From assembly GCF_016903815.1 (NCBI RefSeq), contig NZ_CP069971.1: a stretch of DNA of 48,644 nt. One strand, given 5' to 3'. Source of the DNA: Escherichia coli. Lineage in GTDB: Bacteria > Pseudomonadota > Gammaproteobacteria > Enterobacterales > Enterobacteriaceae. The notes beneath the pieces are model-generated. The model saw only the letters and a program-made list of their open reading frames with translations, had not been told where the DNA came from and did no database searches. Both the position numbers and the translations under genes were made by a program. Numbering within the stretch: position 1 is the stretch's first letter; each line of letters begins with the position of its first letter. This document shows, one piece after another, positions 2,256 to 45,121 of the stretch.

Positions 2256-2767
2256 TGATGGCCCCCGTCATTTCTGGTGCTTTTCACCGTGCGGCTTCTT
2301 AAAAACCTGCCATCACGAACAACAGACACTTCTCGTTTACCCAACCTCATTTCACGGCGGTAACATTCAGAAAATGCCTCGTCCGGCATCATATAAATGC
2401 GACGCTTCGCCTCCGTATCCAGAAGGGAACGGCTTGGGGTTACATATAAAAACGACTCATCAATAGGGACAAAACCACGAGCAAGAATTGCTGGCAGAAT
2501 GCCAGGAAGAACGCAGAAAACAGCTCCACGATGCAGCAACATCTGGTACTCCATGACCTCCGTTATCCCCGTGACTACTGTTACGGTGTCACGTCTGTTA
2601 CGGCTGGCAACCAGTCGCTGCACACGTCCAATTTTCTGATCTACAGATAGATGTTTGCTATCGTTATCAATATGATCGATAGCAAATCCTTTAATCGTTT
2701 GATCAAGGTAGTGCACCACCTTCGATTGAATCTGGTGATTATCACCAAAGAAGGCCAGAATCATCAT
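2252..2767 (-). CDS. hypothetical protein
   Basis: 171 aa ORF; start overlaps the Cro-like gene stop by 4 nt. No family recognised. Confidence 0.4.
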   Translation of the reverse strand: MMILAFFGDNHQIQSKVVHYLDQTIKGFAIDHIDNDSKHLSVDQKIGRVQRLVASRNRRDTVTVVTGITEVMEYQMLLHRGAVFCVLPGILPAILARGFVPIDESFLYVTPSRSLLDTEAKRRIYMMPDEAFSECYRREMRLGKREVSVVRDGRFLRSRTVKSTRNDGGHQ

Positions 2768-3258
2768 TCCTCAAGCCTCCCAAGTGCTGAACGCCGGGCG
2801 TTGCTAATCTCCTTATGAATCAGCTCGATATCGCTGGAATCTTTATTCTTAAGCTCCAGCACGGTAATCGCATCACGAACCTCTGAAACGGTTACGTGTG
2901 AGTGTTTCCAGCGAGCAATGAATCGCGGACCGCGTAGATTGCAACGCTCCGCAGGCATCCCCAACTCAGAGAAAACCGCTTTCAGCCTTGATAAGCAGTT
3001 AACAGGGAGATTCCCTTTGATCTTGTTCTGCCGAACCGATGTGCCATCGCTACGCTGGCGCTGACGTTCGGCAAAATCTGCCGCCCATTGCTGGACGTTA
3101 ATCCGGCCTTCCGAATACGCCACCAGCAGCGTCAGGTTATCCGCACGAGGGAATCTCTCGAAGCGATACCAGGCACCAATCAGTGATGACGTAAAGCCAA
3201 ACTTTCTGGCAACACCAATTTGGCCTCCATTTTCGTCAACCCACTCCTGAAAGGTCAT
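2764..3258 (-). CDS. Cro-like HTH regulator with C-terminal extension
   Basis: 164 aa; N-terminal GGQIGVARKFGFTSSLIGAWYRFERFPRADNL resembles Cro/YdaS-type HTH; divergent from the CI-like gene across an operator cluster. Confidence 0.5.
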   Translation of the reverse strand: MTFQEWVDENGGQIGVARKFGFTSSLIGAWYRFERFPRADNLTLLVAYSEGRINVQQWAADFAERQRQRSDGTSVRQNKIKGNLPVNCLSRLKAVFSELGMPAERCNLRGPRFIARWKHSHVTVSEVRDAITVLELKNKDSSDIELIHKEISNARRSALGRLEE

Positions 3259-3274
3259 TTAACGAACTCCAGTT

Positions 3275-3400
3275 AAAACCACGATATGTGGTATTAAAAC
3301 CACATATCGTGAGTTTTTCAATGGGCAAAACAAAAAATAACCTTCTATTTGTGGTCCACCTCTCGTCTTACCATGTGAAAACCACTAAATGTGGTAATGT
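3275..3400. promoter_or_regulatory. divergent promoter/operator region with ACCAC-N5-GTGGT operator sites
   Basis: Cores at 3278-3292 (ACCACGATATGTGGT), 3299-3313 (ACCACATATCGTGAG, the mirror of the first) and 3381-3395 (ACCACTAAATGTGGT), plus a GTGGTCCAC element at 3351-3359. Confidence 0.6.
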
Positions 3401-3432
3401 ATAAATAACCCACCATTCACGATTGATGAGAC

Positions 3433-4089
3433 ATGAAAAGCAACGACGAGAACATCAAGAAAGAAATAGGTCTGCGCATTCAGACTCTACGGAAACAATC
3501 CGGCATGACTGCCGGAGATCTCCAGCAAGTCACTGGAATAGGCTTAAGCACCTTGCAGAACTATGAGGCCGGATTAAGACAACCATCTATACCTGCCATC
3601 AAGAAAATCGCGCACGCCCTGAAAGCATCAGCGCCTTATATCGCGTGCTTAACAGATAACCCGTTCCCACCCCAGAATACTAACGCTCCTGTTATTCCTG
3701 GGCTTGTAGCTATAAAAAATGACATAGCATCGCACGCCGGAGAAAAGCCAGTGCTGGCGATAGAACAGGAGATTCTACGAAGCAAGAACATCAACCCATC
3801 GTCTCTGTCAGTTCTCCAGAGCAACGATGAGTTAATGTCACCAACAATATCCCCTGGCTCCCAAGTCCTGATTGATACAGACGATACAGAGATTCATGAG
3901 GGGATCTATGCCCTTGAAGACAGAAATGGCCTGGTTGTTTTGAGGCACTGTAGAGTCATACCGGGTGACAATGCTGTTATGCTGTCAACCGAAAGGGATG
4001 CTGAAATGAACACTAAGCATCTGAATAACGAGGAATTTAAGCGTTATAAAGTTCTGGGCCGCGTAGTTAGTGTTGTCAACTGGTTATGA
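3433..4089 (+). CDS. CI-like repressor (N-terminal HTH, C-terminal LexA/S24-type autopeptidase domain)
   Basis: 218 aa; HTH GLRIQTLRKQSGMTAGDLQQVTGIGLSTLQNYEAG; C-terminal ...VVLRHCRVIPGDNAVMLSTERD...YKVLGRVVSV resembles S24 peptidase. Confidence 0.75.
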   Translation: MKSNDENIKKEIGLRIQTLRKQSGMTAGDLQQVTGIGLSTLQNYEAGLRQPSIPAIKKIAHALKASAPYIACLTDNPFPPQNTNAPVIPGLVAIKNDIASHAGEKPVLAIEQEILRSKNINPSSLSVLQSNDELMSPTISPGSQVLIDTDDTEIHEGIYALEDRNGLVVLRHCRVIPGDNAVMLSTERDAEMNTKHLNNEEFKRYKVLGRVVSVVNWL

Positions 4090-4131
4090 TACACAGCACG
4101 GCGAAAGCCGTGCATTTCTACGCTCAAAAAA

Positions 4132-4146
4132 ACCACATTTTGTGGT
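4132..4146. promoter_or_regulatory. operator site ACCACATTTTGTGGT next to a TTGACA element
   Basis: Perfect 7-5-7 palindrome AAACCAC-ATTTT-GTGGTTT directly upstream of the 4182 ORF. Confidence 0.55.
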
Positions 4147-4181
4147 TTTGACAACATGTGAAAGTATAAAAGAGGCTACGC

Positions 4182-4556
4182 ATGGAATTACATACAGCCA
4201 ATAAAAACGAAACTCTGATCACTGCTGGAATCGAAATCCAAGCGTTGAACATAGCGATTGAGTGTATGTTATGCCAAATCATTGATAATGAGAAAGATAT
4301 CGACTGGATATCATCTACCCTTCATCTTGCTTACGAGCAAAAAGCCTGCCTCAAAACAGCCTTACAATACGATGTGCCTTCTGTATCAAAGCTGTGCCAG
4401 TCATTGATGGCATATAACAGAGCTATCATTTCTGTATGCCTCATGATTCTCGATGAGAATACCCCTCTTAGCGACCGCTCAGAAGCAGCTCTAACCCTCT
4501 CACGTAAACAGCGACAGCTAGCAAATCAACTGATATCAACGATAGCTGACCTCTGA
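4182..4556 (+). CDS. hypothetical protein (operator-controlled orphan gene)
   Basis: 124 aa ORF with an upstream GAGG RBS; flanked by an operator upstream and a hairpin terminator downstream. Confidence 0.45.
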   Translation: MELHTANKNETLITAGIEIQALNIAIECMLCQIIDNEKDIDWISSTLHLAYEQKACLKTALQYDVPSVSKLCQSLMAYNRAIISVCLMILDENTPLSDRSEAALTLSRKQRQLANQLISTIADL

Positions 4557-4560
4557 CTGC

Positions 4561-4585
4561 AAGCGGGCTAACGCCCGCTTATATG
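4561..4585 (+). terminator. intrinsic terminator hairpin
   Basis: AAGCGGGC-TAAC-GCCCGCTT followed by a T-rich stretch. Confidence 0.5.
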
Positions 4586-4589
4586 ATTA

Positions 4590-4683
4590 TAGATTTATAT
4601 AATTATATAAAACGCTTTTCATCCGCCAAAAAGTTGGTTATGCTTACCTCGTTCTATAAATATAGATTTATAGAATTATATAA
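4590..4683. repeat. two AT-rich composite sites (ATAGATTTATA + TATAATTATATAA) upstream of parA; candidate centromere/operator
   Basis: 4590-4610 ...tagatttatataattatataa and 4661-4683 tatagatttatagaattatataa. Confidence 0.5.
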
Positions 4684-4706
4684 CCAAACACATGGAGTCT
4701 CGACAA

Positions 4707-5360
4707 ATGACTATCTCTGTAGGTATTTTCAACGGAAAAGGCGGCGTAACCAAATCAACAATTGCCCGTGCTTTAGCAGTTGCTTATGCAAAGGCTGGCT
4801 GGAATGTATGCCTGATCGATATGGATGTGCTTAACGGAACGGTAACGCGTTGGGTACAACGCAGAATGGCCAACAATATCGAACCAGCAATCGCGGCGCA
4901 GCCGTGCGGCACACCATCACAAGTCCAGAAAATCATCGAATCAGAAGTATACGACCTGGTTATCGTCGATGGCGGTGCCTACGCATCTGAATCAGTACCG
5001 AAGCTCTCTGAATTTCTGGATATGGTTATTTTGCCAACCAGATTCTCTACCGATGACCTGGAAACCACCGTTAACACAGCTCACGGCATCGTTAAAAAGG
5101 GTGTACCAATCAAGAAAATTTGCATGGTGTTTTCCGGCGCGGCTGAAAACGAAGCTGACTATATTGAAGCCCAAGAGTACCTGGCTAATACGCCATACTT
5201 TGTTGTCGATAAGTACATTCCCCACAAGCCAGCTCTGAGCAAAGCTCAGGATAAGGGCTTAAGCCTTATTGAGTGCTCATACGTTGCGCCACGCAAAAAG
5301 GCAGACGATGTTATCCAGGGGATTATCAATCAGCTTGAGGCTCTGACTACTGCCGCGTAA
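4707..5360 (+). CDS. parA: ParA-family partition ATPase (deviant Walker A)
   Basis: MTISVGIFNGKGGVTKSTIA...CLIDMD; GGAG RBS about 10 nt upstream of the ATG at 4707 (the ORF track starts at an upstream in-frame ATG, 4692). Confidence 0.8.
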   Translation: MTISVGIFNGKGGVTKSTIARALAVAYAKAGWNVCLIDMDVLNGTVTRWVQRRMANNIEPAIAAQPCGTPSQVQKIIESEVYDLVIVDGGAYASESVPKLSEFLDMVILPTRFSTDDLETTVNTAHGIVKKGVPIKKICMVFSGAAENEADYIEAQEYLANTPYFVVDKYIPHKPALSKAQDKGLSLIECSYVAPRKKADDVIQGIINQLEALTTAA

Positions 5361-5391
5361 TATATAATTATAGTTTTATAGATTTATATAA
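5361..5391. repeat. AT-rich palindromic site between parA and the ParG-like gene
   Basis: tatataattatag ttt tatagatttatataa, the same motif family as at 4590-4683. Confidence 0.45.
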
Positions 5392-5403
5392 AAGGGGATA
5401 CAC

Positions 5404-5652
5404 ATGGCCGCACCATCAAAACCACCGAAAAAGAACAGCAAAGGCGTACCGCCATCAATCGAACAACCGCAGGTTTTCGACCCGACTGAAACGCCGACCA
5501 GAACCAAATCAGGTGGGGCACAAATGGCGTTTAACGTCGACCCTGAATTTAAACGCGAGTACAAAACGTTCGCCAGCTCAATGGATATGTCATTGAAAGA
5601 AGTGCTGACAAAATCTTTTGAGTTACTCAAGGCTCAATACAACCAGAAGTAA
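5404..5652 (+). CDS. small partition/centromere-binding protein, ParG-like (predicted ribbon-helix-helix)
   Basis: 82 aa; flexible basic N-terminus and C-terminal MAFNVDPEFKREYKTFASSMDMSLKEVL, RHH-like; immediately downstream of parA. Confidence 0.55.
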   Translation: MAAPSKPPKKNSKGVPPSIEQPQVFDPTETPTRTKSGGAQMAFNVDPEFKREYKTFASSMDMSLKEVLTKSFELLKAQYNQK

Positions 5653-5874: not shown

Positions 5875-5900
5875 AAAAAAGGCCCCCGAAGGGGCCTAAT
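5875..5900 (-). terminator. intrinsic terminator (GGCCCC-CGAA-GGGGCC, T-run on minus strand)
   Basis: Perfect GC hairpin flanked by an A6 run on the plus strand, i.e. T6 on the minus strand; lies between convergent genes. Confidence 0.65.
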
Positions 5901-5902
5901 CG

Positions 5903-6022
5903 CTACTTGCTGCTAATGTTTATCGTCACATTCAGAGCGTTATCAGTAATCTTCCAACCCTCCCCATGTGGCGTAAACAAAGCTCCAGTAACAACGATAA
6001 AAATACACATACAGTATTTTTT
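5903..6022 (-). CDS. small hydrophobic peptide (about 40 aa), function unknown
   Basis: MKKYCMCIFIVVTGALFTPHGEGWKITDNALNVTINISSK with an AGGG RBS, ending at the terminator hairpin. Confidence 0.3.
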   Translation of the reverse strand, partial: KKYCMCIFIVVTGALFTPHGEGWKITDNALNVTINISSK

Positions 6023-6423
6023 CATTGTATGGCCCTTACAGGCCGTTTCACGGCATCCCCACCGACGAAAACAACGCGAGAGCAAGCACGGCTGCTTGTG
6101 CTTGCATGTACGGCAACGGAGAATCCTCCCCTAAAGTCGGTGCCCGGGTGCGAATCGGCGGGAAGGTCCACAGGTATTTTACGATTATTTTAAGATTAGT
6201 TATAGGAAAGAAATTAAACGAAAAAACTCGTTTATTTTCACAAAATCAGTAACCTACCCACAATCTGTGAGTTTGCAGGCACAACAAGAACCACAATTTT
6301 ATGAAGCATAATAGTGGACTATTATTACCTTTTGGGTAAAATTAACTTGCTGCTTGTGCTTGCGTGGTTGTTTATACAACAACGTAATGCTGAAAGGACC
6401 GCGAATCCGATCAGCACGAAAGA

Positions 6424-6449
6424 ACCGTCCTCAATAGGGCGGTTTTTTT
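6424..6449 (+). terminator. intrinsic terminator/attenuator in the antirepressor leader
   Basis: ACCGTCCT-CAAT-AGGGCGGT followed by T7. Confidence 0.6.
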
Positions 6450-6468
6450 GTTTCTGCCTACCAATAAA

Positions 6469-6483
6469 CCCACACTATGTGGT
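6469..6483. promoter_or_regulatory. operator-like site CCCACACTATGTGGT (ACCAC-N5-GTGGT family)
   Basis: One mismatch to the operator consensus seen between the CI-like and Cro-like genes. Confidence 0.5.
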
Positions 6484-6593
6484 TGTCTCTGTTAAAATCC
6501 CGCCGTATTGACATAAATGCGCCATTGGTGGACACTTTCCTAGCCGTAGCAAAATCTACGGTCGGGATTGGAACCCCGTAGACACAATGGCGC

Positions 6594-6616
6594 ATACCGC
6601 GTTAGCGGTTTTTTTA
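6594..6616 (+). terminator. second terminator-like hairpin in the antirepressor leader
   Basis: ACCGC-GTTA-GCGGT followed by T7. Confidence 0.45.
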
Positions 6617-6781
6617 TGCGTAAAGCACTGCTACACCCAAATTATGGTGGGGCGTGCGGGGGAGTCGTAAGACTCGCCGGTTCGTCATTGTGTCCGGTAG
6701 TTCCAACCCTGCACGTCTCACCACCCAATGATTGGAACCTGACGGTGGTGAGTATCCTTAACCTTTAAGGGAATCATCACA

Positions 6782-6973
6782 ATGACAAACCTACCCCATG
6801 ACTATTACGTCAACCTCGTAAAGATCCTTCTCAAGAAAGCCTCATACGCCGATAAATTCCGCCTGGCTGAAATAATCGAGCGCGAAGCTATGCGCATCGC
6901 CAGCAACGATAACGCTGTTTCTGTCGCAAAAATCTCCCTCGTAACCAAAGTAGTTATGGGAGGTGCAAAATGA
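6782..6973 (+). CDS. small protein translationally coupled to the antirepressor gene
   Basis: 63 aa; its stop overlaps the ATG of the next gene (ATGA overlap at 6970). Confidence 0.45.
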   Translation: MTNLPHDYYVNLVKILLKKASYADKFRLAEIIEREAMRIASNDNAVSVAKISLVTKVVMGGAK

Positions 6974-8151
6974 AAACGCTTCCGACCGTTAACACCCTAC
7001 AGCCTATCCTGCATAACCAGATCCCCGTTATCACTACTGAACTACTGGCGCAATTGTATGGAACCGAGCGCCAACGTCTGACGAACAATTTCAATAGAAA
7101 CAAGGAACGTTTTATAGAAGGTAAACACTTTTTTAGGATAGAAGGTAAAGAGTTACGAGAGTTGAAGAACAAAAACTCTTTAAGAGTTCCTGTGAGAGTA
7201 GTTAACGAACCATCTTTAAGAGGGTTACAAATTCCCCCGAAAGTTCGCTCCCTCATCCTCTGGACAGAACGCGGGGCTGCACGTCACGCCAAAATGCTTG
7301 AAACTAACCAAGCGTGGGATGTGTTCGAACGGCTGGAAGACTGCTATTTCAGCCAGAACGCGCAAACGGCCGCGACCGTAACCGTCTCGCCAAGCAATGC
7401 TCGTGAGGTTGTTGATACGCTCAACGCCAAACCAATGTATTACGTTAAGGTGTGCAATAACGAGCCACTCACAACCTCAGCCGATGTTGCCCAGGCATTC
7501 AGCACCACAAACAATTCCATCGTTATGGCCATCGATGCGTTACGCATTCCTCGCACAGCTGCGGCGCGTCATTTCTTTAAAGAGCAACGACCGTTGGAAG
7601 GAAGCGACCGCGAAATAACAATCTATCGCATGACAAAAGACGGATTTACCTTGCTCATGGAAAGTATCGACGGTCCAAGCGTGAAGGATATCAAGCTGGC
7701 CTACATTGAAGCTTTTAACGCTATCAGCAGCGTGTTAAAGGCAGAATACGAGCGAATACTATACAACCGACTGTATCAGGAAACAAAGATTATCCGAACG
7801 GCAACAGAACATCATCGGCTATTAACGGAACCAAACTACCGCAAGACACTAATCAAAGAGTTTGACAAAGCGACGGAGAAAACTAAAGCGGCACTAAATC
7901 TACCAACAATGACTAAGGATGATGTGATATCAGCCTTACTTCTTGATCTACTCAGAAACGCCAGAGCACTTATAAGCTTTGACGAAAACCTGAATCCTCA
8001 GCTCAAGCTACTACCACCGACAGGCAAAGTAGTCGACCAGGCTGATCACAACAGCATACTCAGCGTTCTGGATGCAAACCTGCCAGCCAGGACACTACAG
8101 GAACTGATAAAAATATCTGCGGATAAACTGGCCGCAGGTGCAAAACCATAA
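6970..8151 (+). CDS. antirepressor-like protein (ORF6N/KilA-type N-terminal domain)
   Basis: 393 aa; N-terminal ...NNFNRNKERFIEGKHFFRIEGKELRELK...LILWTERGAARHAKMLETNQAWDVFERLEDCYF matches the ORF6N-type antirepressor pattern as I recall it. Confidence 0.6.
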   Translation: MKTLPTVNTLQPILHNQIPVITTELLAQLYGTERQRLTNNFNRNKERFIEGKHFFRIEGKELRELKNKNSLRVPVRVVNEPSLRGLQIPPKVRSLILWTERGAARHAKMLETNQAWDVFERLEDCYFSQNAQTAATVTVSPSNAREVVDTLNAKPMYYVKVCNNEPLTTSADVAQAFSTTNNSIVMAIDALRIPRTAAARHFFKEQRPLEGSDREITIYRMTKDGFTLLMESIDGPSVKDIKLAYIEAFNAISSVLKAEYERILYNRLYQETKIIRTATEHHRLLTEPNYRKTLIKEFDKATEKTKAALNLPTMTKDDVISALLLDLLRNARALISFDENLNPQLKLLPPTGKVVDQADHNSILSVLDANLPARTLQELIKISADKLAAGAKP

Positions 8152-12867: not shown

Positions 12868-13848
12868 TTAATGTTGGAGTGATTTCCAGGTCTTTCTTAG
12901 CCTGTTATAACGCTGCTCAACGAGGGAGCGTAAATATGCAAGGTCAGCACCAGGATACATGCCATCAGCAAATTCCTGGCTAACCTCTCTAGTGATTTGA
13001 TGACGAAGTTCGGCCTCTCCCTTTTCCTGAACAAGACGCGCAGCTCTCTCCGCTGCTTTCTGTTTTGCCTTTATCTCTCTGGCCGTCTTCCTCTGACGCC
13101 ATACATTCTCCATCTGCTCCTGAATAACAATACGCTTATAATCAGCCTCCGTTATCGCTTTTTTAAGCCGTTCGCTATTCTTCGCATTGAAGTAATTAAG
13201 TTTCTGGCTAACCGCACGTCTCCATGCTTGTTCAGTAATACCAACTGTTTCCAGCAGTTGATCACGAATCTCGATTTTCGCTGGCCAATACTGTTTATTC
13301 ACCCGATCCCAGCGACGTTCATAATCAATAAAACCTAACTCTTTCAGTTGCGACAACGCCCTTGTACAGCGCGTTATAGACTTGTTCCCAGCTTCGGATA
13401 CGGTAGACAGGCCGCAAAAATCAGCCAACGCCTCAGCACTGGCCAGAACCCGCTTAGAAATGATGTTTACATGGTGCAAAATCGCAGCAATCACAGCATT
13501 AATCGCCCGACGACGATGCTCGTTTATCCGGCGTTTCCGCTCTGACGGTTGATTAACGTAGAACGCAACCTCACACGTAAGATCACGACCATTAATGCGC
13601 TGTAAAGCATCAGATAACACCAGCGGCAGCTTGTGCGTATGGTGCTTTGGAGGCTGGAACTCCGGCGACAAATTACAAACGTAAGCTGAACGTAGAGACG
13701 GCATTGGTCTATCCATATGTTCGCTCTTGCGTCCACGGAAAACCAACGTATAATGGGAGTTGTCGAGGCGCCCATGGATTGTTGTTGTTGGTTTTCCGTG
13801 GATGTCGCAAGAAGCCCGCAGATTTATCTGCGGGCTTTTTGTTTCCAT
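12868..13848 (-). CDS. repA: replication initiator RepA (IncFII RepA-like); may include a leader ORF, with an alternative internal start near 13716
   Basis: ...CGLSTVSEAGNKSITRCTRALSQLKELGFIDYERR... resembles the conserved core of IncFII RepA1 (recalled, not searched). Confidence 0.65.
   Translation of the reverse strand: METKSPQINLRASCDIHGKPTTTIHGRLDNSHYTLVFRGRKSEHMDRPMPSLRSAYVCNLSPEFQPPKHHTHKLPLVLSDALQRINGRDLTCEVAFYVNQPSERKRRINEHRRRAINAVIAAILHHVNIISKRVLASAEALADFCGLSTVSEAGNKSITRCTRALSQLKELGFIDYERRWDRVNKQYWPAKIEIRDQLLETVGITEQAWRRAVSQKLNYFNAKNSERLKKAITEADYKRIVIQEQMENVWRQRKTAREIKAKQKAAERAARLVQEKGEAELRHQITREVSQEFADGMYPGADLAYLRSLVEQRYNRLRKTWKSLQH
13762..13840 (+). ncRNA. CopA-like antisense RNA opposite the repA 5' region (putative)
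   Basis: Plus-strand promoter TTGCGT (13727-13732), 16-nt spacer, TATAAT (13749-13754); terminator AGCCCGCAGAT..ATCTGCGGGCT + T-run at 13813-13840, antisense to the first repA codons and RBS. Confidence 0.5.
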
Positions 13849-14055
13849 ATCTGGTCATTTTCCAACCAGACACCCACAATCATAACCACGTTACGTGGTT
13901 TTAAGAGAACTCTACCACAACACTTTCGGTCATGCACGAAGTCTCTCACTGATCGAACGATAATCCACCAGTAAAAGGATCTAAATTGGATCTCGTTTTG
14001 CGAGCATCATACTACTGGCCTAACTCCAGTCAATGATGAACATAACAACACTCCT

Positions 14056-21420: not shown

Positions 21421-22422
21421 TTAATACCCATTAATTACTCTTCGGACATCAATCGAGGTGGTATAACCACTAGCCCCAATTGAATGCACAGCTTTCGATA
21501 TAAGATATTTTCCAGAAAATGAACCGAATCTGTCCAGATTTATAGTTACACCAGCTACCAATCTGGTGTCTCCAACCAATACTAAAGATCCTGTATTTTG
21601 ATATCTATTTTTAAGCCGCAAAGCAGCCTTTGCCTTACGTTTTGCTTCATCTAAATTAGCTACCAGTTTTCTTATCTTAAGATTCGACCCTTCTTCTACG
21701 GATGGATCTACCCAAGTATACGAAAGCGACTTTCTTTTTTTAGGTACGCGATATTTGCACGTGCAACTTTTATACAAATCTGTAGATTGTGTGCTAAAGC
21801 TATATCTGATTATCTCATCAATACCTAACGTAAGCGTAGCGATAGGATCTTTTTGCTCAAACATCTCTTGAGCAAATATTATTAATTGGCTATCAGTGAC
21901 CTTTAACGACAACCCTTCATCCTGGCAAAGTCGATGGAGAAATTTTAAATCGCTTTCCTCCATTTGATCTTCACGCGCATAATATGGATTACTATCACCA
22001 TCAATAAGAAACAACAGTTCAAGGTTAGCTAATTTAGCTATAGAGGTTGCTATATCTTTAAGAGTTGTTTTTTCCCATGCATTACTTTTTAAATCACGTC
22101 TAATGCCTGATGAAACAGGAACAGAAACAGCAGTCACCTCAACAACAGAAGGTGGTCCAGAGCAAGTTATGCCATCTACCTGGAATTTCCCGCACTCAAG
22201 GACGATTTGATTTATAGGCTTAAAGCTCAAATCAATAAAATCACCCTTTTTAGGTGTCCAGTCTCCAGACCATTTCCCATCATCATTTTTTAATATAATA
22301 GAAATATCATCGACCTGACCATCTTCATTATCTGTATAAGACATTGACAAAACATCAGGTGACATATGAGCGGTAATATTTACATTCTGATATATAACAT
22401 CAAAAAGCGTTTTACGTAACAC
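21421..22422 (-). CDS. tail protein D-like (late control gpD family, baseplate hub)
   Basis: 333 aa; C-terminal ...SKAVHSIGASGYTTSIDVRR. Confidence 0.7.
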   Translation of the reverse strand: MLRKTLFDVIYQNVNITAHMSPDVLSMSYTDNEDGQVDDISIILKNDDGKWSGDWTPKKGDFIDLSFKPINQIVLECGKFQVDGITCSGPPSVVEVTAVSVPVSSGIRRDLKSNAWEKTTLKDIATSIAKLANLELLFLIDGDSNPYYAREDQMEESDLKFLHRLCQDEGLSLKVTDSQLIIFAQEMFEQKDPIATLTLGIDEIIRYSFSTQSTDLYKSCTCKYRVPKKRKSLSYTWVDPSVEEGSNLKIRKLVANLDEAKRKAKAALRLKNRYQNTGSLVLVGDTRLVAGVTINLDRFGSFSGKYLISKAVHSIGASGYTTSIDVRRVINGY

Positions 22423-36121: not shown

Positions 36122-36711
36122 TACTTGCAACCATTGGCAAGATACTGAACAAATCCCTCATGCGTTTCATGCGCGTCGTGGTACTGACGATAAACATCCA
36201 GCAACAATGCAATTTCCATATCCGTCGCGGGAATACGTTCTTTATCAATAGCCAGGTACTTAATTTGAACAACAGGGGAAGAATTATCGTCTTCTTCCTG
36301 CGGCTGTTCATCGCTTAACATTTCGTCAAGCTCTGCATCATTAAACCCAAGCAGATCAATATCAAAATCATCATCCATTAACTCTTTGACTTCTTCGGCC
36401 AGAAGCTGCATATCCCAGCCAGCATTTAAGGCCAGCTTGTTATCTGCAATCCTGTACGCCTTCTTCTGTTTTTCAGAAAGGTTACTCAACCGAATCGCCG
36501 GAACTTTATCCATTTCCAGAATTTCGGCTGCTGCAAGCCGCCCATGCCCCGCAATCAGTTCATTCTTTTCATCGATCAGCACAGGATTAGTGAAACCGAA
36601 CTCACGGATACTGTTCACCAACTGTTCAACTTGCTCATCTGAATGAGTCCGTGAATTTTTGGCATATCTGAGCAGCTTACCGACTGGTAAATATTCGATT
36701 TTTAGAGCCAT
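36121..36711 (-). CDS. ParB-like N-terminal domain (ParB/Srx fold) protein
   Basis: 196 aa; ...LIDEKNELIAGHGRLAAAEIL...; paralog of 39378-40001. Confidence 0.7.
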   Translation of the reverse strand: MALKIEYLPVGKLLRYAKNSRTHSDEQVEQLVNSIREFGFTNPVLIDEKNELIAGHGRLAAAEILEMDKVPAIRLSNLSEKQKKAYRIADNKLALNAGWDMQLLAEEVKELMDDDFDIDLLGFNDAELDEMLSDEQPQEEDDNSSPVVQIKYLAIDKERIPATDMEIALLLDVYRQYHDAHETHEGFVQYLANGCK

Positions 36712-38004: not shown

Positions 38005-39384
38005 CTACTTAATCAACGGCCGGAAAGCCGCCAGCACATCATCAGATCGTCCGATTGTTGAACCACCAGGCAACGGCAACTCAAACTCAAAACGAACAGC
38101 TTTCTCCAGACTCGCCCAACTAAGGGAATCATCGTTAATGACGTGCAAATACCAGCTCTTACAGTTGAATATTGACCGCTTAATCCTGAAACCATGTACA
38201 CGACACAACTGCTTCACTTCCTCATCAGAGTGAAACTTCTGGTAAAACCAGTGCCCCTTCCGGTACAACGCGGTAAAACCGTCATGATCAATAAAATAAA
38301 GCCGGCTTTTGGAACTCGCCGCTTGTGTTTGCTTCAGGACTGTTTCCAGTTCTCCACGGCTACGGCCAGAAAAGAATATTGACCCACCAGCTTTACACAG
38401 GCCTTTCAGAACCGTCAGAACGGACCATTCAGCCTCGACACTATCGACCGAGTTCAAAACGCTATCGCAAATCACGTAGTCGTAACGCCCTCGCGTTTTT
38501 AAGTCGTCCACCAGCGTATCAATCATCCGGTTTGTTGCGGCCCTATCCAGAGTGTTTCCAGCGCCCTTACGGCGGAAAAGCTCGAGATCATGCAGGTTAT
38601 ATCCCTTTGCCCTGAGCATTCGCGCGTAGTCTCCCTGCCCCGAACCAAAATCAATTCCTCTTGGCGTCTTGGCAATGATCGGGAGGATCAACGACTCATA
38701 CAGATTTGATTTCAGGCTGCCACCATTACGCAACCGCATAAGCTGCGCATACGTCTGGATGTATGTTGTTTTCTCCAGATGAGAATACTCAAATACACCA
38801 TAAGTTTTATTCAGATAACTTTGGTATTTTTCCTTCTCAACATCAGGGATCACAAACACCGTTAGCGGTGTGCGCGTCATTTTCGCTGCTAATGCATACT
38901 GAGCACAGTGAATAACCTCACCAGACTGAGTAGCAACACAACCACCCCACGGACCATACTTGATAACCAGTTCCGCTATGTTCTTTCGAACATATGCCAT
39001 TTTCGCGCGCATATTGCCTGAGATCTGGCTTGCCGATACCTGAACAAAACCATGCTTATCTTCCAGACCGGACACCCTGCAACGCTCATCTCCGCTATCA
39101 AAATCCGTTCCGTTATGCAGTTGGTTAAACCGTACTTCGTCGTATACCGTCGTTTCACAGGGCAACACATACACCGCAGCACGCGTTATTCCCAACTTAC
39201 GTAGCGCCTTCGTCCTTTGGTGTCCCGCCACCAGCAAATCGCCGCGCACTATCAATGGCTTCACAAGCCCCAGCTCCCTGACGCTTTCCGCCAGCCTCGC
39301 AAGATCATCCTCACCGATAAAACGCGGGTTATATTCCGCGCCGCGTAGGTGCGTTATGTCGTAATTGAGGTGAAGCATCAGCAC
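38005..39384 (-). CDS. fusion protein: ParB-like N-terminal domain + class-I SAM-dependent methyltransferase-like C-terminal domain
   Basis: N-terminal ...LIVRGDLLVAGHQRTKALRKLG...; C-terminal GIDFGSGQGDYARML, DYVICDSVL, LCKAGGSIFFSG motifs; no DPPY/NPPY motif seen. Confidence 0.65.
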   Translation of the reverse strand: MLMLHLNYDITHLRGAEYNPRFIGEDDLARLAESVRELGLVKPLIVRGDLLVAGHQRTKALRKLGITRAAVYVLPCETTVYDEVRFNQLHNGTDFDSGDERCRVSGLEDKHGFVQVSASQISGNMRAKMAYVRKNIAELVIKYGPWGGCVATQSGEVIHCAQYALAAKMTRTPLTVFVIPDVEKEKYQSYLNKTYGVFEYSHLEKTTYIQTYAQLMRLRNGGSLKSNLYESLILPIIAKTPRGIDFGSGQGDYARMLRAKGYNLHDLELFRRKGAGNTLDRAATNRMIDTLVDDLKTRGRYDYVICDSVLNSVDSVEAEWSVLTVLKGLCKAGGSIFFSGRSRGELETVLKQTQAASSKSRLYFIDHDGFTALYRKGHWFYQKFHSDEEVKQLCRVHGFRIKRSIFNCKSWYLHVINDDSLSWASLEKAVRFEFELPLPGGSTIGRSDDVLAAFRPLIK

Positions 39385-40001
39385 ACCTCCCCAGCCAGCA
39401 ATGCGGATACAAATCCGATATAGCTGCCATTATCATCAACATAACGAGACACCGCGCAGTCAAAACGATCCGCTTCCTCATCCGTTGCCGGGATTTTATG
39501 ACCTCCAAATGACAGGTACTGAACTTTTACGCCTGATTTGGCCTCATCCTTCTCAAATGGGATATCCATACCCTCTGTGTCATCGTAGACTGCCGCACTC
39601 AATAAGTTATCCAGTTCGCGCTGAGTAAAACCAATTGAGTCCAGAGCAAAATCATCGGCCGCAAGATCTGCAAGCTCCGCGCTTAACAACTCTTCATCCC
39701 AACCAGCATTCAGCGGAATACGGTTGTCGGCCAGACGATATGCCTTCTTCTGATTCTCCGTTAGCCCAGCCAGAACAATGCAGGGAACATCATCCATCCC
39801 CAACTGAGTGGCCGCAGCAATTCGACCATGACCAGCAATTACAACGTTGTTCTCGTCTATCAGGATCGGATTAGTCCATCCGTACTCCTGTATGCTGGCA
39901 ACAATCTGATCTACCTGCTCCACGGAGTGTGTGCGAGCGTTCTTTTCATAACCAATCAACACAGAAAGTGGTAAAGAAACCACATTAAGATGTTTTGTCA
40001 T
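39378..40001 (-). CDS. ParB-like N-terminal domain protein (paralog)
   Basis: 207 aa; aligns by eye with 36121-36711 over most of its length. Confidence 0.7.
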   Translation of the reverse strand: MTKHLNVVSLPLSVLIGYEKNARTHSVEQVDQIVASIQEYGWTNPILIDENNVVIAGHGRIAAATQLGMDDVPCIVLAGLTENQKKAYRLADNRIPLNAGWDEELLSAELADLAADDFALDSIGFTQRELDNLLSAAVYDDTEGMDIPFEKDEAKSGVKVQYLSFGGHKIPATDEEADRFDCAVSRYVDDNGSYIGFVSALLAGEVC

Positions 40002-44735: not shown

Positions 44736-44748
44736 TGAAATCCTCGTT

Positions 44749-44782
44749 AAAAAAAAAGCCCCGCCGAAAAAGGCAGGGCTTC
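44749..44782 (-). terminator. intrinsic terminator immediately upstream of the holin RBS
   Basis: Minus strand GAAGCCCTGCC-TTTTTC-GGCGGGGC followed by T9. Confidence 0.6.
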
Positions 44783-45121
44783 ATAAAGCAACAAATTACG
44801 CGGTAATCGCTTAACGCAGTTTTACTACGTTAAATGAAACACTACACCCAGTTACCACCTAAAACAAGGTTTCCCCATAAAAAAACCTTCATATCGTGGT
44901 TAATCGATCAATAAAAAATCAATGTTCAACTTTTTACCAACCGAACATCCCGACCAGGACTTCCATAATATTCGCCGATATGCCACTGCTTAAGTTGAGT
45001 AATCTTCTCCAACTTAACTCCCATAGAGTCCAGTTTCTGCCATGTTTTCGGTTGTATGTGCTTCATTACCCGCTCTGAATATCTGAATACTGCTCGTAAG
45101 CGCATGGTTTCTCACTACAGC

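What the first reader, a model, noticed from the sequence alone, without database searches (positions are those of the whole stretch)
3275..3400. ACCAC-N5-GTGGT operator family places the antirepressor locus and an orphan gene under repressor control
Three sites lie between the divergent CI-like and Cro-like genes, one directly upstream of the 124-aa gene (4132-4146) and one in the antirepressor leader (6469-6483). Two of the central sites are exact mirror images (3279-3291 and 3300-3311). This implies a repressor regulon with several scattered operators.
Basis: seen in the sequence. Interest (0 to 1): 0.5.

Follow-up and report, generated by a model that had tools for sequence, protein, structure and literature searches.

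The report
Phage-plasmid repressor operators, also at repA
A 15-bp palindrome, ACCAC-N5-GTGGT, recurs at the regulatory regions of this 48-kb phage-plasmid and is kept by its relatives, so it is almost certainly the prophage repressor's operator; it also sits at the plasmid replication gene, an arrangement already known from phages N15 and P1.

Summary
ACCAC-N5-GTGGT occurs exactly 4 times in the window (0.05 expected). Degenerate copies lie at 3299-3313 (2 mismatches) and 6469-6483 (1 mismatch). A matrix trained only on relatives ranks these six as the window's top six hits, and all six lie between genes.

In Salmonella, Enterobacter, Citrobacter and Yokenella relatives (repressor 61-66% identical) the sites hold the same positions. 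Half-sites differ by 2%, the N5 spacer by 37%, and changes are not compensatory. That fits a protein operator, not an RNA hairpin.

Two operators fill the 17-bp spacer of predicted promoters, one for the lytic operon and one for repA.

The antirepressor-leader site is the weakest. It centres near -67 of the isrK/C4/ant promoter and is absent from the Salmonella relatives. It does keep a 24-nt distance to the -35 across unrelated linker sequence.

The repressor appears to lack the self-cleavage residues, so induction probably runs through the antirepressor.

In concept this is the N15 CB and P1 C1 arrangement, so I file it as a new member of a known kind. No binding was tested.

The parts
3433..4089 (+). 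CI-like repressor gene (218 aa): an N-terminal XRE-type HTH and a degenerate S24-like C-terminal domain.
   Evidence: phrog_4 'transcriptional repressor' 1.8e-27. Pfam HTH_3 6.8e-11 and Peptidase_S24 7.8e-4. Aligned with LexA, lambda CI and UmuD, it has Glu at the catalytic Ser, Arg at the catalytic Lys and no Ala-Gly site.
2764..3258 (-). First gene of the divergent leftward (lytic) operon, 164 aa: a Cro/YdaS-like N-terminal domain plus an unknown C-terminal domain.
   Evidence: phrog_7452, function unknown. No Pfam match. The AlphaFold model's N-terminal ~60 residues match Xfaso1 Cro, N15 Cro and YdaS only weakly.
3278..3292 (.). Operator O1, ACCACgatatGTGGT (exact). It lies just downstream of the -10 of the predicted leftward promoter and covers its likely start point.
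   Evidence: matrix score 29.8. Same position in all five group-A genomes.
3299..3313 (.). Operator O2, ACCACatatcGTGAG (2 mismatches), 21 bp centre-to-centre from O1. It fills the 17-bp spacer of the predicted leftward promoter (-35 TTGAAA at 3321-3316, -10 TTTAAT at 3298-3293, minus strand).
   Evidence: score 23.7. The 6-bp gap to O1 is invariant in relatives. The promoter was read from the sequence; the scan tool did not list it because position 2 of its -10 is T.
3341..3355 (.). Hybrid site O*, CCTTCtatttGTGGT: one canonical half and one conserved alternative half (GAAGG on the other strand), between O2 and O3.
   Evidence: Kept as CCT[TC]C-N5-GTGGT in all five group-A genomes.
3381..3395 (.). 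Operator O3, ACCACtaaatGTGGT (exact), 38 bp upstream of the repressor start codon. Probably the autoregulatory or Cro-target site.
   Evidence: score 21.0. Conserved position. The promoter assignment (GTGAAA 3373-3378; TATAAA 3401-3406) is uncertain.
4132..4146 (.). Operator O124, ACCACattttGTGGT (exact). It lies between the repressor gene's terminator hairpin (4097-4116) and the 124-aa gene, 35 nt before its ATG, over the -35 region of a possible extended -10 promoter (TGtGAAAGT, 4157-4165).
   Evidence: score 30.5. Exact site at the same place in L002, L014, L015 and L016 with different N5 spacers. The promoter is my own reading.
4182..4556 (+). The 'orphan' 124-aa gene, always found between the repressor gene and parA. 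Predicted four-helix bundle, function unknown.
   Evidence: phrog_7632, function unknown. No Pfam match. pLDDT 92 four-helix bundle. Only generic bundle matches. Synteny.
6469..6483 (.). Operator-like site Oant, CCCACactatGTGGT (1 mismatch). It sits just after an sRNA terminator and 24 nt upstream of the TTGACA -35 (6508-6513), centred near -67 of the isrK/C4/ant operon start.
   Evidence: score 17.0; shuffle 95th percentile 13.9. L014-L016 carry ACCAC-N5-GTGAT at the same 24-nt distance with an unrelated linker. Absent in L002/L013.
6508..6536 (+). Predicted promoter of the antirepressor operon: TTGACA, 17 bp, GACACT.
   Evidence: Read from the sequence. Conserved in L001, L002 and L014-L016. 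The Rfam isrK match starts at 6543.
6543..6728 (+). Leader RNAs of the antirepressor operon: isrK-like RNA (6543-6615, with its own terminator) and C4 antisense RNA (6640-6728).
   Evidence: Rfam RF01394 at 67.7 bits and RF01695 at 77.8 bits, both above their gathering scores.
6782..8151 (+). 63-aa ORF (6782-6973) and the antirepressor gene (6970-8151, ORF6N/Ant N-terminal part plus Rha domain).
   Evidence: phrog_8244, several anti-repressor PHROGs and TIGR02681 Rha. Pfam ORF6N and Phage_pRha on the L014 homologue.
13885..13899 (.). It abuts a TATGAT -10 (13884-13879, minus strand), fills the 17-bp spacer of the predicted repA promoter, and lies 169 nt upstream of the likely repA start.
   Evidence: Top matrix score, 30.9. 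Exact site at the same place in L002, L013, L014 and L015 with different spacers.
12868..13716 (-). repA, an IncFII-type plasmid replication initiator. The open frame runs up to 13848, but homology and the relatives' annotated starts point to the ATG at 13716.
   Evidence: NCBIfam NF040977 RepA_IncFII_LM, 232 bits against a cut-off of 70, matching residues 58-319 of the long ORF. Pfam IncFII_repA on homologues.
13813..13848 (+). Terminator hairpin of a probable CopA-like antisense RNA, opposite the repA leader.
   Evidence: Sequence gcccgcag...ctgcgggc followed by a T-run. Conserved in L002, L014, L015 and L003. Only sub-threshold, terminator-driven Rfam hits at 13731-13844(+).
44886..44900 (.). 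Hybrid site Olate, CCTTCatatcGTGGT (ACCAC-N5-GAAGG in the direction of late transcription). It lies upstream of a conserved leader and terminator that precede the holin and endolysin genes.
   Evidence: Matrix score 14.0, at the chance threshold. The same hybrid sits at the same place in L001, L002 and L014-L016. Holins and endolysin.

Best explanation
The window is a complete or nearly complete ~48.6-kb circular phage-plasmid: a myovirus with an IncFII-type RepA and a ParA-type partition system. ACCAC-N5-GTGGT, in extended form AAAACCAC-N5-GTGGTTTT, is the operator of its lysogeny switch. The most likely binder is a dimer of the CI-like HTH repressor (3433-4089), with the Cro-like 164-aa protein probably using a subset of the same sites.

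Proposed workings (inferred, not measured):
1. O1 and O2 are 21 bp apart, about two helical turns. O2 fills the spacer of the leftward lytic promoter and O1 covers its start point, so a pair of dimers shuts off the lytic operon.
2. O3, next to the repressor gene, provides autoregulation or is the Cro target.
3. A single operator over the -35 region of the 124-aa gene's promoter keeps that gene off in the lysogen.
4. A single operator fills the spacer of the repA promoter, upstream of a CopA-like antisense control region. It ties plasmid copy number and lytic replication to repressor level, as N15 CB does at repA.
5. A weaker operator sits about 67 bp upstream of the start of the isrK/C4/63-aa/ant operon and links the antirepressor operon to the repressor. 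The likely route is cooperative binding or looping, or a roadblock, rather than direct promoter occlusion.

The repressor appears to lack the Ser/Lys dyad and the Ala-Gly site. Induction would therefore go through the antirepressor, so repressor and antirepressor would form a mutual-inhibition loop like P1 C1/Ant.
For: Enrichment: 4 exact sites against 0.05 expected.

Independent matrix: a matrix trained only on relatives ranks 13885, 4132, 3278, 3299, 3381 and 6469 as the six best hits of the window (30.9 down to 17.0; shuffle maximum 95th percentile 13.9). All six are intergenic.

Positional conservation: in Salmonella, Enterobacter, Citrobacter and Yokenella relatives, whose repressors are 61-66% identical, sites are kept at the three immunity positions, before the 124/125-aa gene and before repA.

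Substitution pattern: across orthologous sites the half-sites differ by 2.2%, the N5 spacer by 37% and the flanks by 22%. In 11 near-identical relatives every change inside a 15-bp core falls in the spacer.

Not an RNA stem: half-site variants (CCCAC, GTGGG, GTGAG, GTGAT) are not compensated on the partner arm. The long O1-O2 inverted repeat of the window is not kept in relatives.

Recognition helix: STLQNYE is identical across group A and kept in distant group B, which uses ACCAC/ACTAC-type sites.

Geometry: O2 and Orep each abut a -10 hexamer and fill a 17-bp spacer (sequence).

Oant: it keeps a 24-nt distance to TTGACA in two leader versions whose linkers match at only 7 of 24 positions.

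Precedents: N15 CB binds three OR sites and two OL sites at the repA promoter (PMC4488713). P1 C1 represses the c4-icd-ant operon (PMC8198154).
Against: No binding, transcription or copy-number data exist for this element, and I found no paper on it.

Which protein binds is inferred. The recognition helix does not vary among the genomes that share the motif, so protein-site co-variation could not be tested.

Promoters are read by eye. The tool's consensus scan did not list them, the -35 of the repA promoter is poor, and the promoters of the 124-aa gene and the repressor gene are uncertain.

Oant is imperfect, does not overlap the conserved promoter and is absent from L002/L013.

The A-run/T-run flanks make every site look like a weak two-way terminator hairpin.

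Confidence: 0.75

Rival explanations
1. The sites are operators, but the Cro-like 164-aa protein or another early protein is the main or only binder, and the CI-like protein recognises something else.
For: The 164-aa protein has a Cro/YdaS-like N-terminal domain and is encoded next to the site cluster. No co-variation links the motif specifically to the CI-like protein. In PY54, Cro binds a palindrome next to the repressor gene (PMC4488713).
Against: No other repeated palindrome is evident in the immunity region that could serve the CI-like protein. Controlling repA and an antirepressor operon is the job of a maintenance repressor in N15 and P1. Lambdoid CI and Cro normally share operators, so the two readings are not exclusive.
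Confidence: 0.12
2. The palindromes act as RNA hairpins, either two-way terminators or processing signals, and are not protein-binding sites.
For: The AAAA...TTTT flanks give a hairpin-plus-U-run look. The scan flags 3280-3311 and 6470-6482 as terminator-like. O124 and Oant each lie just after a real terminator.
Against: The stem sequence itself is conserved (2% divergence) instead of drifting with compensation, and the observed half-site changes break pairing. The loop varies freely. Sites sit inside promoter spacers of divergent or initiating promoters, where termination makes no sense (O2, Orep). The extended O1-O2 stem is lost in relatives.
Confidence: 0.04
3. The core regulon (immunity region, 124-aa gene, repA) is real, but the antirepressor-leader site at 6469-6483 is a non-functional near-match or relic, and the antirepressor is controlled only by the isrK/C4 RNAs.
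For: It has one mismatch and the lowest matrix score of the six (17.0; one of 200 shuffles reached 18.2). It is centred near -67 and so does not overlap the promoter. It is absent from Salmonella relatives that keep all the other sites and the same promoter.
Against: It is the sixth-best hit of 48.6 kb and is intergenic. A one-mismatch site recurs in L001, L014, L015 and L016 at exactly 24 nt from the -35, although the linker and the upstream context are unrelated. Within the close clade only its spacer varies.
Confidence: 0.3
4. The motif's occurrences are chance matches.
For: The motif is short, with 10 specified bases.
Against: 4 exact matches against 0.05 expected, and no shuffle reaches 4. 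All are intergenic and conserved in position across genera.
Confidence: 0.01

Closest known systems
Phage-plasmid N15 (also phiKO2): CB repressor with three OR operators in immB and two OL operators at the repA promoter
   Same: It is a phage that lives as a plasmid. An HTH prophage repressor has related palindromic operators between divergent repressor and cro genes, and further operators at the promoter of the only replication initiator. This couples immunity to plasmid copy number (PMC4488713). It also has an antirepressor locus with a small processed RNA.
   Different: N15 is a linear siphovirus with a protelomerase and a large primase-type RepA. Here the element is circular (the records of relatives say so), a myovirus, with an IncFII-type RepA and a CopA-like antisense region. 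Here there is one operator at repA, not two. The immunity cluster is laid out as 2 + hybrid + 1. N15's antirepressor operon is LexA-controlled (reference cited in PMC4488713), whereas here no LexA box is found and a repressor-type site sits upstream instead. The operator sequences are unrelated as far as I can tell.
Phage-plasmid P1: C1 repressor regulon, including the immI operon c4-icd-ant
   Same: It is a plasmid prophage whose master repressor acts at many scattered single operators. One target is the operon that encodes a C4 antisense RNA followed by a small ORF and the antirepressor. Repressor and antirepressor inhibit each other (PMC8198154). The window has a true C4-family RNA (Rfam).
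   Different: From my own knowledge, P1 C1 is not an XRE/S24-type protein and its operators are asymmetric 17-bp sites. P1's plasmid replication is not known to be under C1 control; only its lytic replicon is. Here the site lies upstream of the promoter rather than over it.
Lambda CI / Cro with OR and OL
   Same: An XRE-type HTH repressor with an S24-like C-terminal domain. Divergent repressor and lytic promoters with multiple palindromic operators. Adjacent sites about two helical turns apart, which suggests pairwise cooperativity. A further operator lies on the far side of the repressor gene and controls a gene that points away from it, the same topology as OL/PL.
   Different: The catalytic Ser/Lys and the Ala-Gly site are not conserved. 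No site sits at about -42 of the repressor promoter, where lambda CI activates its own promoter PRM. The remote operators are single rather than triple. Remote targets include a plasmid replication gene and an antirepressor operon.
Gifsy-type Salmonella prophages with uncleavable repressors and the isrK-orf45-anrP module
   Same: The repressor is inactivated by an antirepressor rather than by self-cleavage (PMC3121763, abstract). An isrK-family RNA lies upstream of a small ORF and an antirepressor-like gene (Rfam isrK hit).
   Different: From my own recollection of that work, Gifsy antirepressors are LexA-controlled. Here no LexA box was found in the leader. Gifsy phages integrate into the chromosome and are not plasmids.

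Membership tests
Lambda-type CI repressor (XRE HTH + S24 self-cleaving domain) | N-terminal Cro/C1-type helix-turn-helix domain | tested here: met
   Pfam HTH_3 6.8e-11 and HTH_31 4.6e-9. PDB sequence hits fall only on XRE HTH domains.
Lambda-type CI repressor (XRE HTH + S24 self-cleaving domain) | C-terminal Peptidase_S24 domain | tested here: inconclusive
   Pfam PF00717 at E = 7.8e-4 over residues 113-212. No S24 hit among solved structures. Homologues carry no precomputed S24 hit.
Lambda-type CI repressor (XRE HTH + S24 self-cleaving domain) | Catalytic Ser/Lys dyad and Ala-Gly cleavage site (RecA-stimulated self-cleavage) | tested here: not met
   The MAFFT alignment with LexA, lambda CI and UmuD puts Glu at Ser119, Arg at Lys156 and no Ala-Gly at the cleavage position.
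Lambda-type CI repressor (XRE HTH + S24 self-cleaving domain) | Multiple related palindromic operators between divergent repressor and lytic promoters | tested here: met
   O1, O2 and O3 plus hybrid O* lie in the 174-bp intergenic region and are conserved in relatives.
N15-type phage-plasmid immunity/replication coupling | Repressor-type operators both in the immunity region and at the promoter of the plasmid replication initiator | tested here: met
   An exact site at 13885-13899 abuts the -10 of the predicted repA promoter and is conserved in four relatives. Binding itself was not tested.
N15-type phage-plasmid immunity/replication coupling | Homology to N15 components (linear genome with protelomerase, N15-type RepA, CB repressor) | tested here: not met
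   RepA is IncFII-type. Records of close relatives are circular. A protein search of phage records with the CI-like protein listed no N15, PY54 or phiKO2 among the rows shown.
P1-type immI operon | C4-family antisense RNA upstream of a small ORF and the antirepressor gene in one operon | tested here: met
   Rfam C4 RF01695 at 77.8 bits (gathering score 45) at 6640-6728, followed by the 63-aa ORF and the ant gene.
P1-type immI operon | Master-repressor operator overlapping the operon's promoter | tested here: not met
   The site at 6469-6483 ends 24 nt upstream of the -35 hexamer, centred near -67. No site overlaps TTGACA-17-GACACT.
Transcription-factor operator (general) | Direct, sequence-specific binding by the proposed protein | not testable with these tools
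   This needs EMSA, footprinting or ChIP.

The most novel reading that the evidence does not exclude
Two features may go beyond the N15/P1 template.

(a) A second, asymmetric site class, ACCAC-N5-GAAGG, is conserved in all five group-A genomes at two places: the middle of the immunity region (3341-3355) and the leader of the late/lysis operon (44886-44900). It could be read by a different protein or protein pair, for example the 164-aa Cro-like protein or a mixed complex. That would wire the lysis-lysogeny switch directly to late-gene control.

(b) The single remote operators, including the one at -67 of the antirepressor operon, may work by long-range looping to the immunity cluster through the catalytically dead S24-like domain, rather than by local occlusion.
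Probability: 0.2. Interest if true: 0.55.

Novelty: new member of a known kind. Interest (0 to 1): 0.4.

Why it matters
This ~48-kb element is common. PLSDB holds 60 related plasmids from Escherichia, Salmonella and Klebsiella, and there are three Yersinia phage isolates. I found nothing published on how it is regulated.

Defining the operator gives a testable map of its lysogeny circuit:
- what the repressor silences;
- how plasmid copy number and lytic replication are coupled through one RepA;
- how induction can occur with a repressor that seems unable to cleave itself.

It also flags a conserved gene of unknown function, predicted to be repressor-controlled (the 124-aa four-helix bundle), as a candidate early effector.

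In concept it repeats what N15 and P1 already taught, so the value lies in annotation and in enabling experiments, not in a new principle.

Tried and rejected
- Chance occurrence: rejected by shuffles and by a matrix trained on relatives only.
- RNA hairpin or terminator reading: rejected on the substitution pattern.
- LexA control of the antirepressor operon, as in N15 and Gifsy: no CTGT-N8-ACAG match in 6000-7000, and the genome-wide count is at chance.
- Function of the 124-aa protein: no result. No Pfam or NCBIfam hit, the PHROG family has no known function, and the confident four-helix bundle matches only designed or generic bundles.
- Pfam on the 164-aa protein: nothing. The fold search gives only weak Cro/YdaS matches for the N-terminal third.
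- hhalign of the repressor against lambda CI: aligned only the HTH.
- Wider sampling: IMG/VR gave almost only near-identical copies, and the GTDB representative-genome scan found nothing. Diversity came from the protein database and its contigs.
- Rfam at relaxed threshold on the repA leader and the late leader: only sub-threshold, terminator-driven hits, no CopA.
- pSLy3 as the family name: it belongs to the SSU5 supergroup and is not this element.
- Literature searches for the element or the motif: nothing specific.
- DnaA boxes, RepA iterons and partition sites as alternative readings of the motif: rejected by inspection. The consensus does not fit a DnaA box, and the partition region has its own AT-rich repeats.

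Full report
**What the window is.** The region 2700-4600 is 98.2-98.5% identical to three ~49-kb Yersinia myophages (vB_YpM_39, 41 and 44). It also matches 60 non-mobilizable PLSDB plasmids, those listed 46-51 kb, mostly from Escherichia. The window encodes several plasmid and phage functions:
- an IncFII-type RepA (12868-13848 minus strand; NCBIfam NF040977 at 232 bits against a cut-off of 70);
- a ParA-type ATPase (4692-5360);
- tail, head and lysis genes.

It is therefore a phage-plasmid. The finding sits in its immunity region. A repressor gene on the plus strand (3433-4089; Pfam HTH_3 6.8e-11 and a weak Peptidase_S24 hit at 7.8e-4) faces a leftward operon. That operon starts with a 164-aa gene (2764-3258).

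**Checking the observation.** ACCAC-N5-GTGGT occurs exactly four times: 3278-3292, 3381-3395, 4132-4146 and 13885-13899. Only 0.05 matches are expected, and none of 100 shuffles reaches four.

With one mismatch allowed, 6469-6483 (CCCAC...GTGGT) joins, along with three hits at 22142, 39958 and 45862. Those three number about what chance predicts (0.91 expected for one mismatch or fewer). With two mismatches allowed, 3299-3313 (ACCAC...GTGAG) appears.

The 'mirror image' remark is correct. 3300-3311 equals the first 12 bases of the reverse complement of 3279-3291. The scan tool sees the pair as a 13-14-bp inverted repeat.

**Is it more than chance, and is it functional?** I collected relatives of graded distance.

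Group A, with repressors 61-66% identical to the window's:
- Salmonella pAR-0407-1 (L002) and a similar IMG/VR contig (L013);
- Enterobacter (L014), Citrobacter (L015) and Yokenella (L016) contigs.

Group B, with repressors 34-36% identical where the gene is complete:
- Serratia pJSRIV006_2 (L003);
- three metagenomic contigs (L017-L019).

All share the same gene order: repA, then the antirepressor, parA, the 124-aa-type gene, the repressor gene, then the divergent 164-aa gene.

Every group-A genome has sites at the same places. There are three between the repressor gene and the 164-aa gene, one before the 124/125-aa gene and, where the locus reaches that far, one before repA.

A position matrix built only from the relatives' sites ranks 13885, 4132, 3278, 3299, 3381 and 6469 as the six best positions in the 48.6-kb window. 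Their scores run from 30.9 down to 17.0. The 95th percentile of the best score in 200 shuffles is 13.9, and the largest is 18.2. All six sites lie between genes.

Across orthologous sites, pairwise divergence is 2.2% in the half-sites, 37% in the five central bases and 22% in the 8-bp flanks. In eleven near-identical relatives, every substitution inside a 15-bp core falls in the central five bases.

The half-site variants that do occur (CCCAC, GTGGG, GTGAG, GTGAT) are not matched by a compensating change in the partner arm. The long O1-O2 inverted repeat of the window is not kept in relatives, where only the half-sites persist.

This is the signature of sequence-specific recognition of two half-sites by a dimeric protein, not of an RNA stem. 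The flanks extend the consensus to about AAAACCAC-N5-GTGGTTTT.

**Anatomy and likely mechanism.** The steps below are inferred from sequence.

*Lytic promoter.* On the minus strand, TTGAAA (3321-3316) and TTTAAT (3298-3293) are 17 bp apart, and equivalent hexamers occur in L002. O2 abuts the -10 and fills this spacer. O1, 21 bp away centre to centre, covers the expected start point. The 6-bp gap between O1 and O2 is invariant in group A. Two dimers bound on the same face would occlude the lytic promoter.

*repA.* The same geometry recurs here. The site abuts TATGAT (13884-13879, minus strand) and fills the 17 bp up to a poor -35. About 40-60 nt downstream on the repA strand lies the conserved terminator hairpin of an opposite-strand RNA (13813-13848). 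Next comes a highly conserved leader, then the probable repA start at 13716. This is an IncFII-like layout with a CopA-like antisense RNA. The repressor site occupies the place where, from my own knowledge of R1-type IncFII replicons, CopB acts. No other replication initiator was seen among the leftward-operon genes that I screened. RepA may therefore serve both plasmid and lytic replication, as in N15. That last point is inference.

*Repressor gene.* O3 lies 38 bp before the repressor start codon. It probably gives autoregulation or is the Cro target. I could not fix that promoter.

*The 124-aa gene.* O124 lies between the repressor gene's terminator and the 124-aa gene, 35 nt from the ATG. 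It sits over the -35 region of a possible extended -10 promoter, TGtGAAAGT at 4157-4165. This is my own reading. The motif recurs in L014-L016 but is less clear in L002.

The 124-aa protein has no family assignment. It is predicted with high confidence as a four-helix bundle, and only generic bundles match it. Its function stays unknown. If the operator represses it, it is an early or induction-phase gene rather than a lysogen-expressed one.

**The antirepressor locus.** The operon does not start at 6970. A conserved promoter (TTGACA 6508-6513, 17 bp, GACACT) precedes an isrK-family RNA (6543-6615, with its own terminator), a C4 antisense RNA (6640-6728), a 63-aa ORF and the antirepressor gene.

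The site at 6469-6483 ends 24 nt upstream of the -35, so it is centred near -67.

Three points argue for function:
- It is the sixth-best matrix hit of the window.
- The Yersinia phage keeps it, with a change in the central five bases, although the DNA upstream of it is entirely different.
- Enterobacter, Citrobacter and Yokenella carry ACCAC-N5-GTGAT at exactly the same 24-nt distance, although the linker matches at only 7 of 24 positions.

Three points argue against simple repression:
- It does not overlap the promoter.
- It is always imperfect.
- The two Salmonella relatives lack it, yet they keep the promoter and all the other operators.

I conclude that it is probably a real low-affinity operator. 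Its mode of action (looping, cooperative recruitment, a roadblock to read-through from upstream) and even the direction of its effect are open.

**How induction might work.** Aligned with LexA, lambda CI and UmuD, the repressor has Glu at the catalytic serine and Arg at the catalytic lysine. The S24 match is weak and absent at the level of solved structures. No LexA box lies in the antirepressor leader.

The repressor is therefore probably not self-cleaving, and it would be inactivated by the antirepressor. Repressor and antirepressor would then inhibit each other, as C1 and Ant do in P1, with the C4/isrK RNAs as a second lock. What triggers the switch remains unknown.

**Comparison with what is known.** The closest functional parallel is N15. 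Its CB repressor binds three OR operators and two OL operators that overlap the repA promoter, and so controls copy number (PMC4488713). For the antirepressor operon the parallel is P1. There C1 represses the c4-icd-ant operon, and C4 RNA completes the block (PMC8198154).

The components here are not homologous to N15's. The RepA is IncFII-type, the relatives' records are circular and the virion is a myovirus. The repressor fails the self-cleavage criteria of the lambda CI family. The site at the antirepressor operon fails the 'overlaps the promoter' criterion of P1.

I found no publication on this element or its operators. It is therefore a new, uncharacterised member of a known kind of circuit.

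**Extra sites seen.** A hybrid site with one canonical half and a conserved alternative half (CCTTC-N5-GTGGT, which is ACCAC-N5-GAAGG on the other strand) is kept in all five group-A genomes at two places:
- 3341-3355, between O2 and O3, 42 bp from O2 and 40 bp from O3;
- 44886-44900, at the head of a strongly conserved leader that ends in a terminator just before the holin and endolysin genes. The layout recalls lambda PR'/tR'.

Whether these sites are weak repressor sites or targets of another protein is unknown. This is the most interesting loose end.

A pair of weak sites 21 bp apart lies in the first codons of a ParB/Srx-like gene (39958-39993). It recurs in L002, but coding constraint could explain that.

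**Verdict.** Interest is moderate.

Noticed in passing
It is conserved in four relatives. This suggests the prophage repressor also controls plasmid replication.
   Followed up: yes
window 3341-3355 and 44886-44900: A hybrid site, CCTTC-N5-GTGGT (ACCAC-N5-GAAGG on the other strand), is conserved in all five group-A genomes at two places: the middle of the immunity region and the head of the late/lysis-operon leader. It may mark a second binding specificity or a weak repressor site.
   Followed up: partly
window 44745-44910(-): A strongly conserved ~150-nt leader ends in a terminator (about 44750-44790) immediately upstream of the holin genes. The layout recalls lambda PR'/6S RNA/tR', which implies antitermination control of late genes. 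There are only sub-threshold Rfam hits, including isrJ at 20 bits.
   Followed up: partly
window 39958-39993: Two weak operator-like sites 21 bp apart lie within the first ~15 codons of a ParB/Srx-like gene (39378-40001, minus strand). The same pair occurs in Salmonella L002 at 36180-36215. Coding constraint could explain the conservation.
   Followed up: partly
window 5875-6171(-) and about 6237-6450(+): There is a ryfA-family RNA (Rfam 142 bits) with a small hydrophobic ORF (MKKYCMCIFIVVTGALF...). A divergent terminated RNA shares the 15-nt string gctgcttgtgcttgc with it. Together they look like a TimP/TimR-type type I toxin-antitoxin inserted between the partition genes and the antirepressor operon. 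The module is absent or replaced in several relatives.
   Followed up: no
window 6543-6615 and 6640-6728: An isrK-family RNA and a C4 antisense RNA lie in tandem in the antirepressor leader, both above Rfam gathering scores. This combines the Gifsy-1 isrK module with the P1 c4 module.
   Followed up: partly
window 3433-4089: The CI-like repressor appears to lack the catalytic Ser (Glu instead), the catalytic Lys (Arg instead) and the Ala-Gly site of self-cleaving S24 repressors. Two distant relatives (L017, L018) keep the Ser but not the Lys.
   Followed up: partly
window 4560-4690 and 5360-5400: AT-rich repeats of the type TATAGATTTATATAATTATATAA flank the parA-like gene on both sides. The gene after it (82 aa, 5404-5652) has no family assignment. 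These are probably the partition sites and the centromere-binding protein.
   Followed up: no
window 13813-13848(+) and 13716-13848(-): The repA reading frame is open for 44 codons upstream of the homologous start. This stretch overlaps the terminator of a probable CopA-like antisense RNA and a leader conserved even in Serratia. It is an IncFII-like control region without a copB gene.
   Followed up: partly
L003, L017, L018, L019 (group B relatives): Distant relatives keep the recognition helix STLQNYE. Their immunity regions are shorter (~125 bp) and carry ACCAC/ACTAC-N5-GTGGT/GTAGT sites. Before the 124-aa-type gene they have two ACCAC half-sites about 20 bp apart as direct repeats. At repA, L003 keeps only the GTGGT half.
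   Followed up: partly
window 3366-3378 and 4154-4165: The string CATGTGAAA occurs both just upstream of O3 and just downstream of O124. It may belong to the respective promoters or may be coincidence.
   Followed up: no
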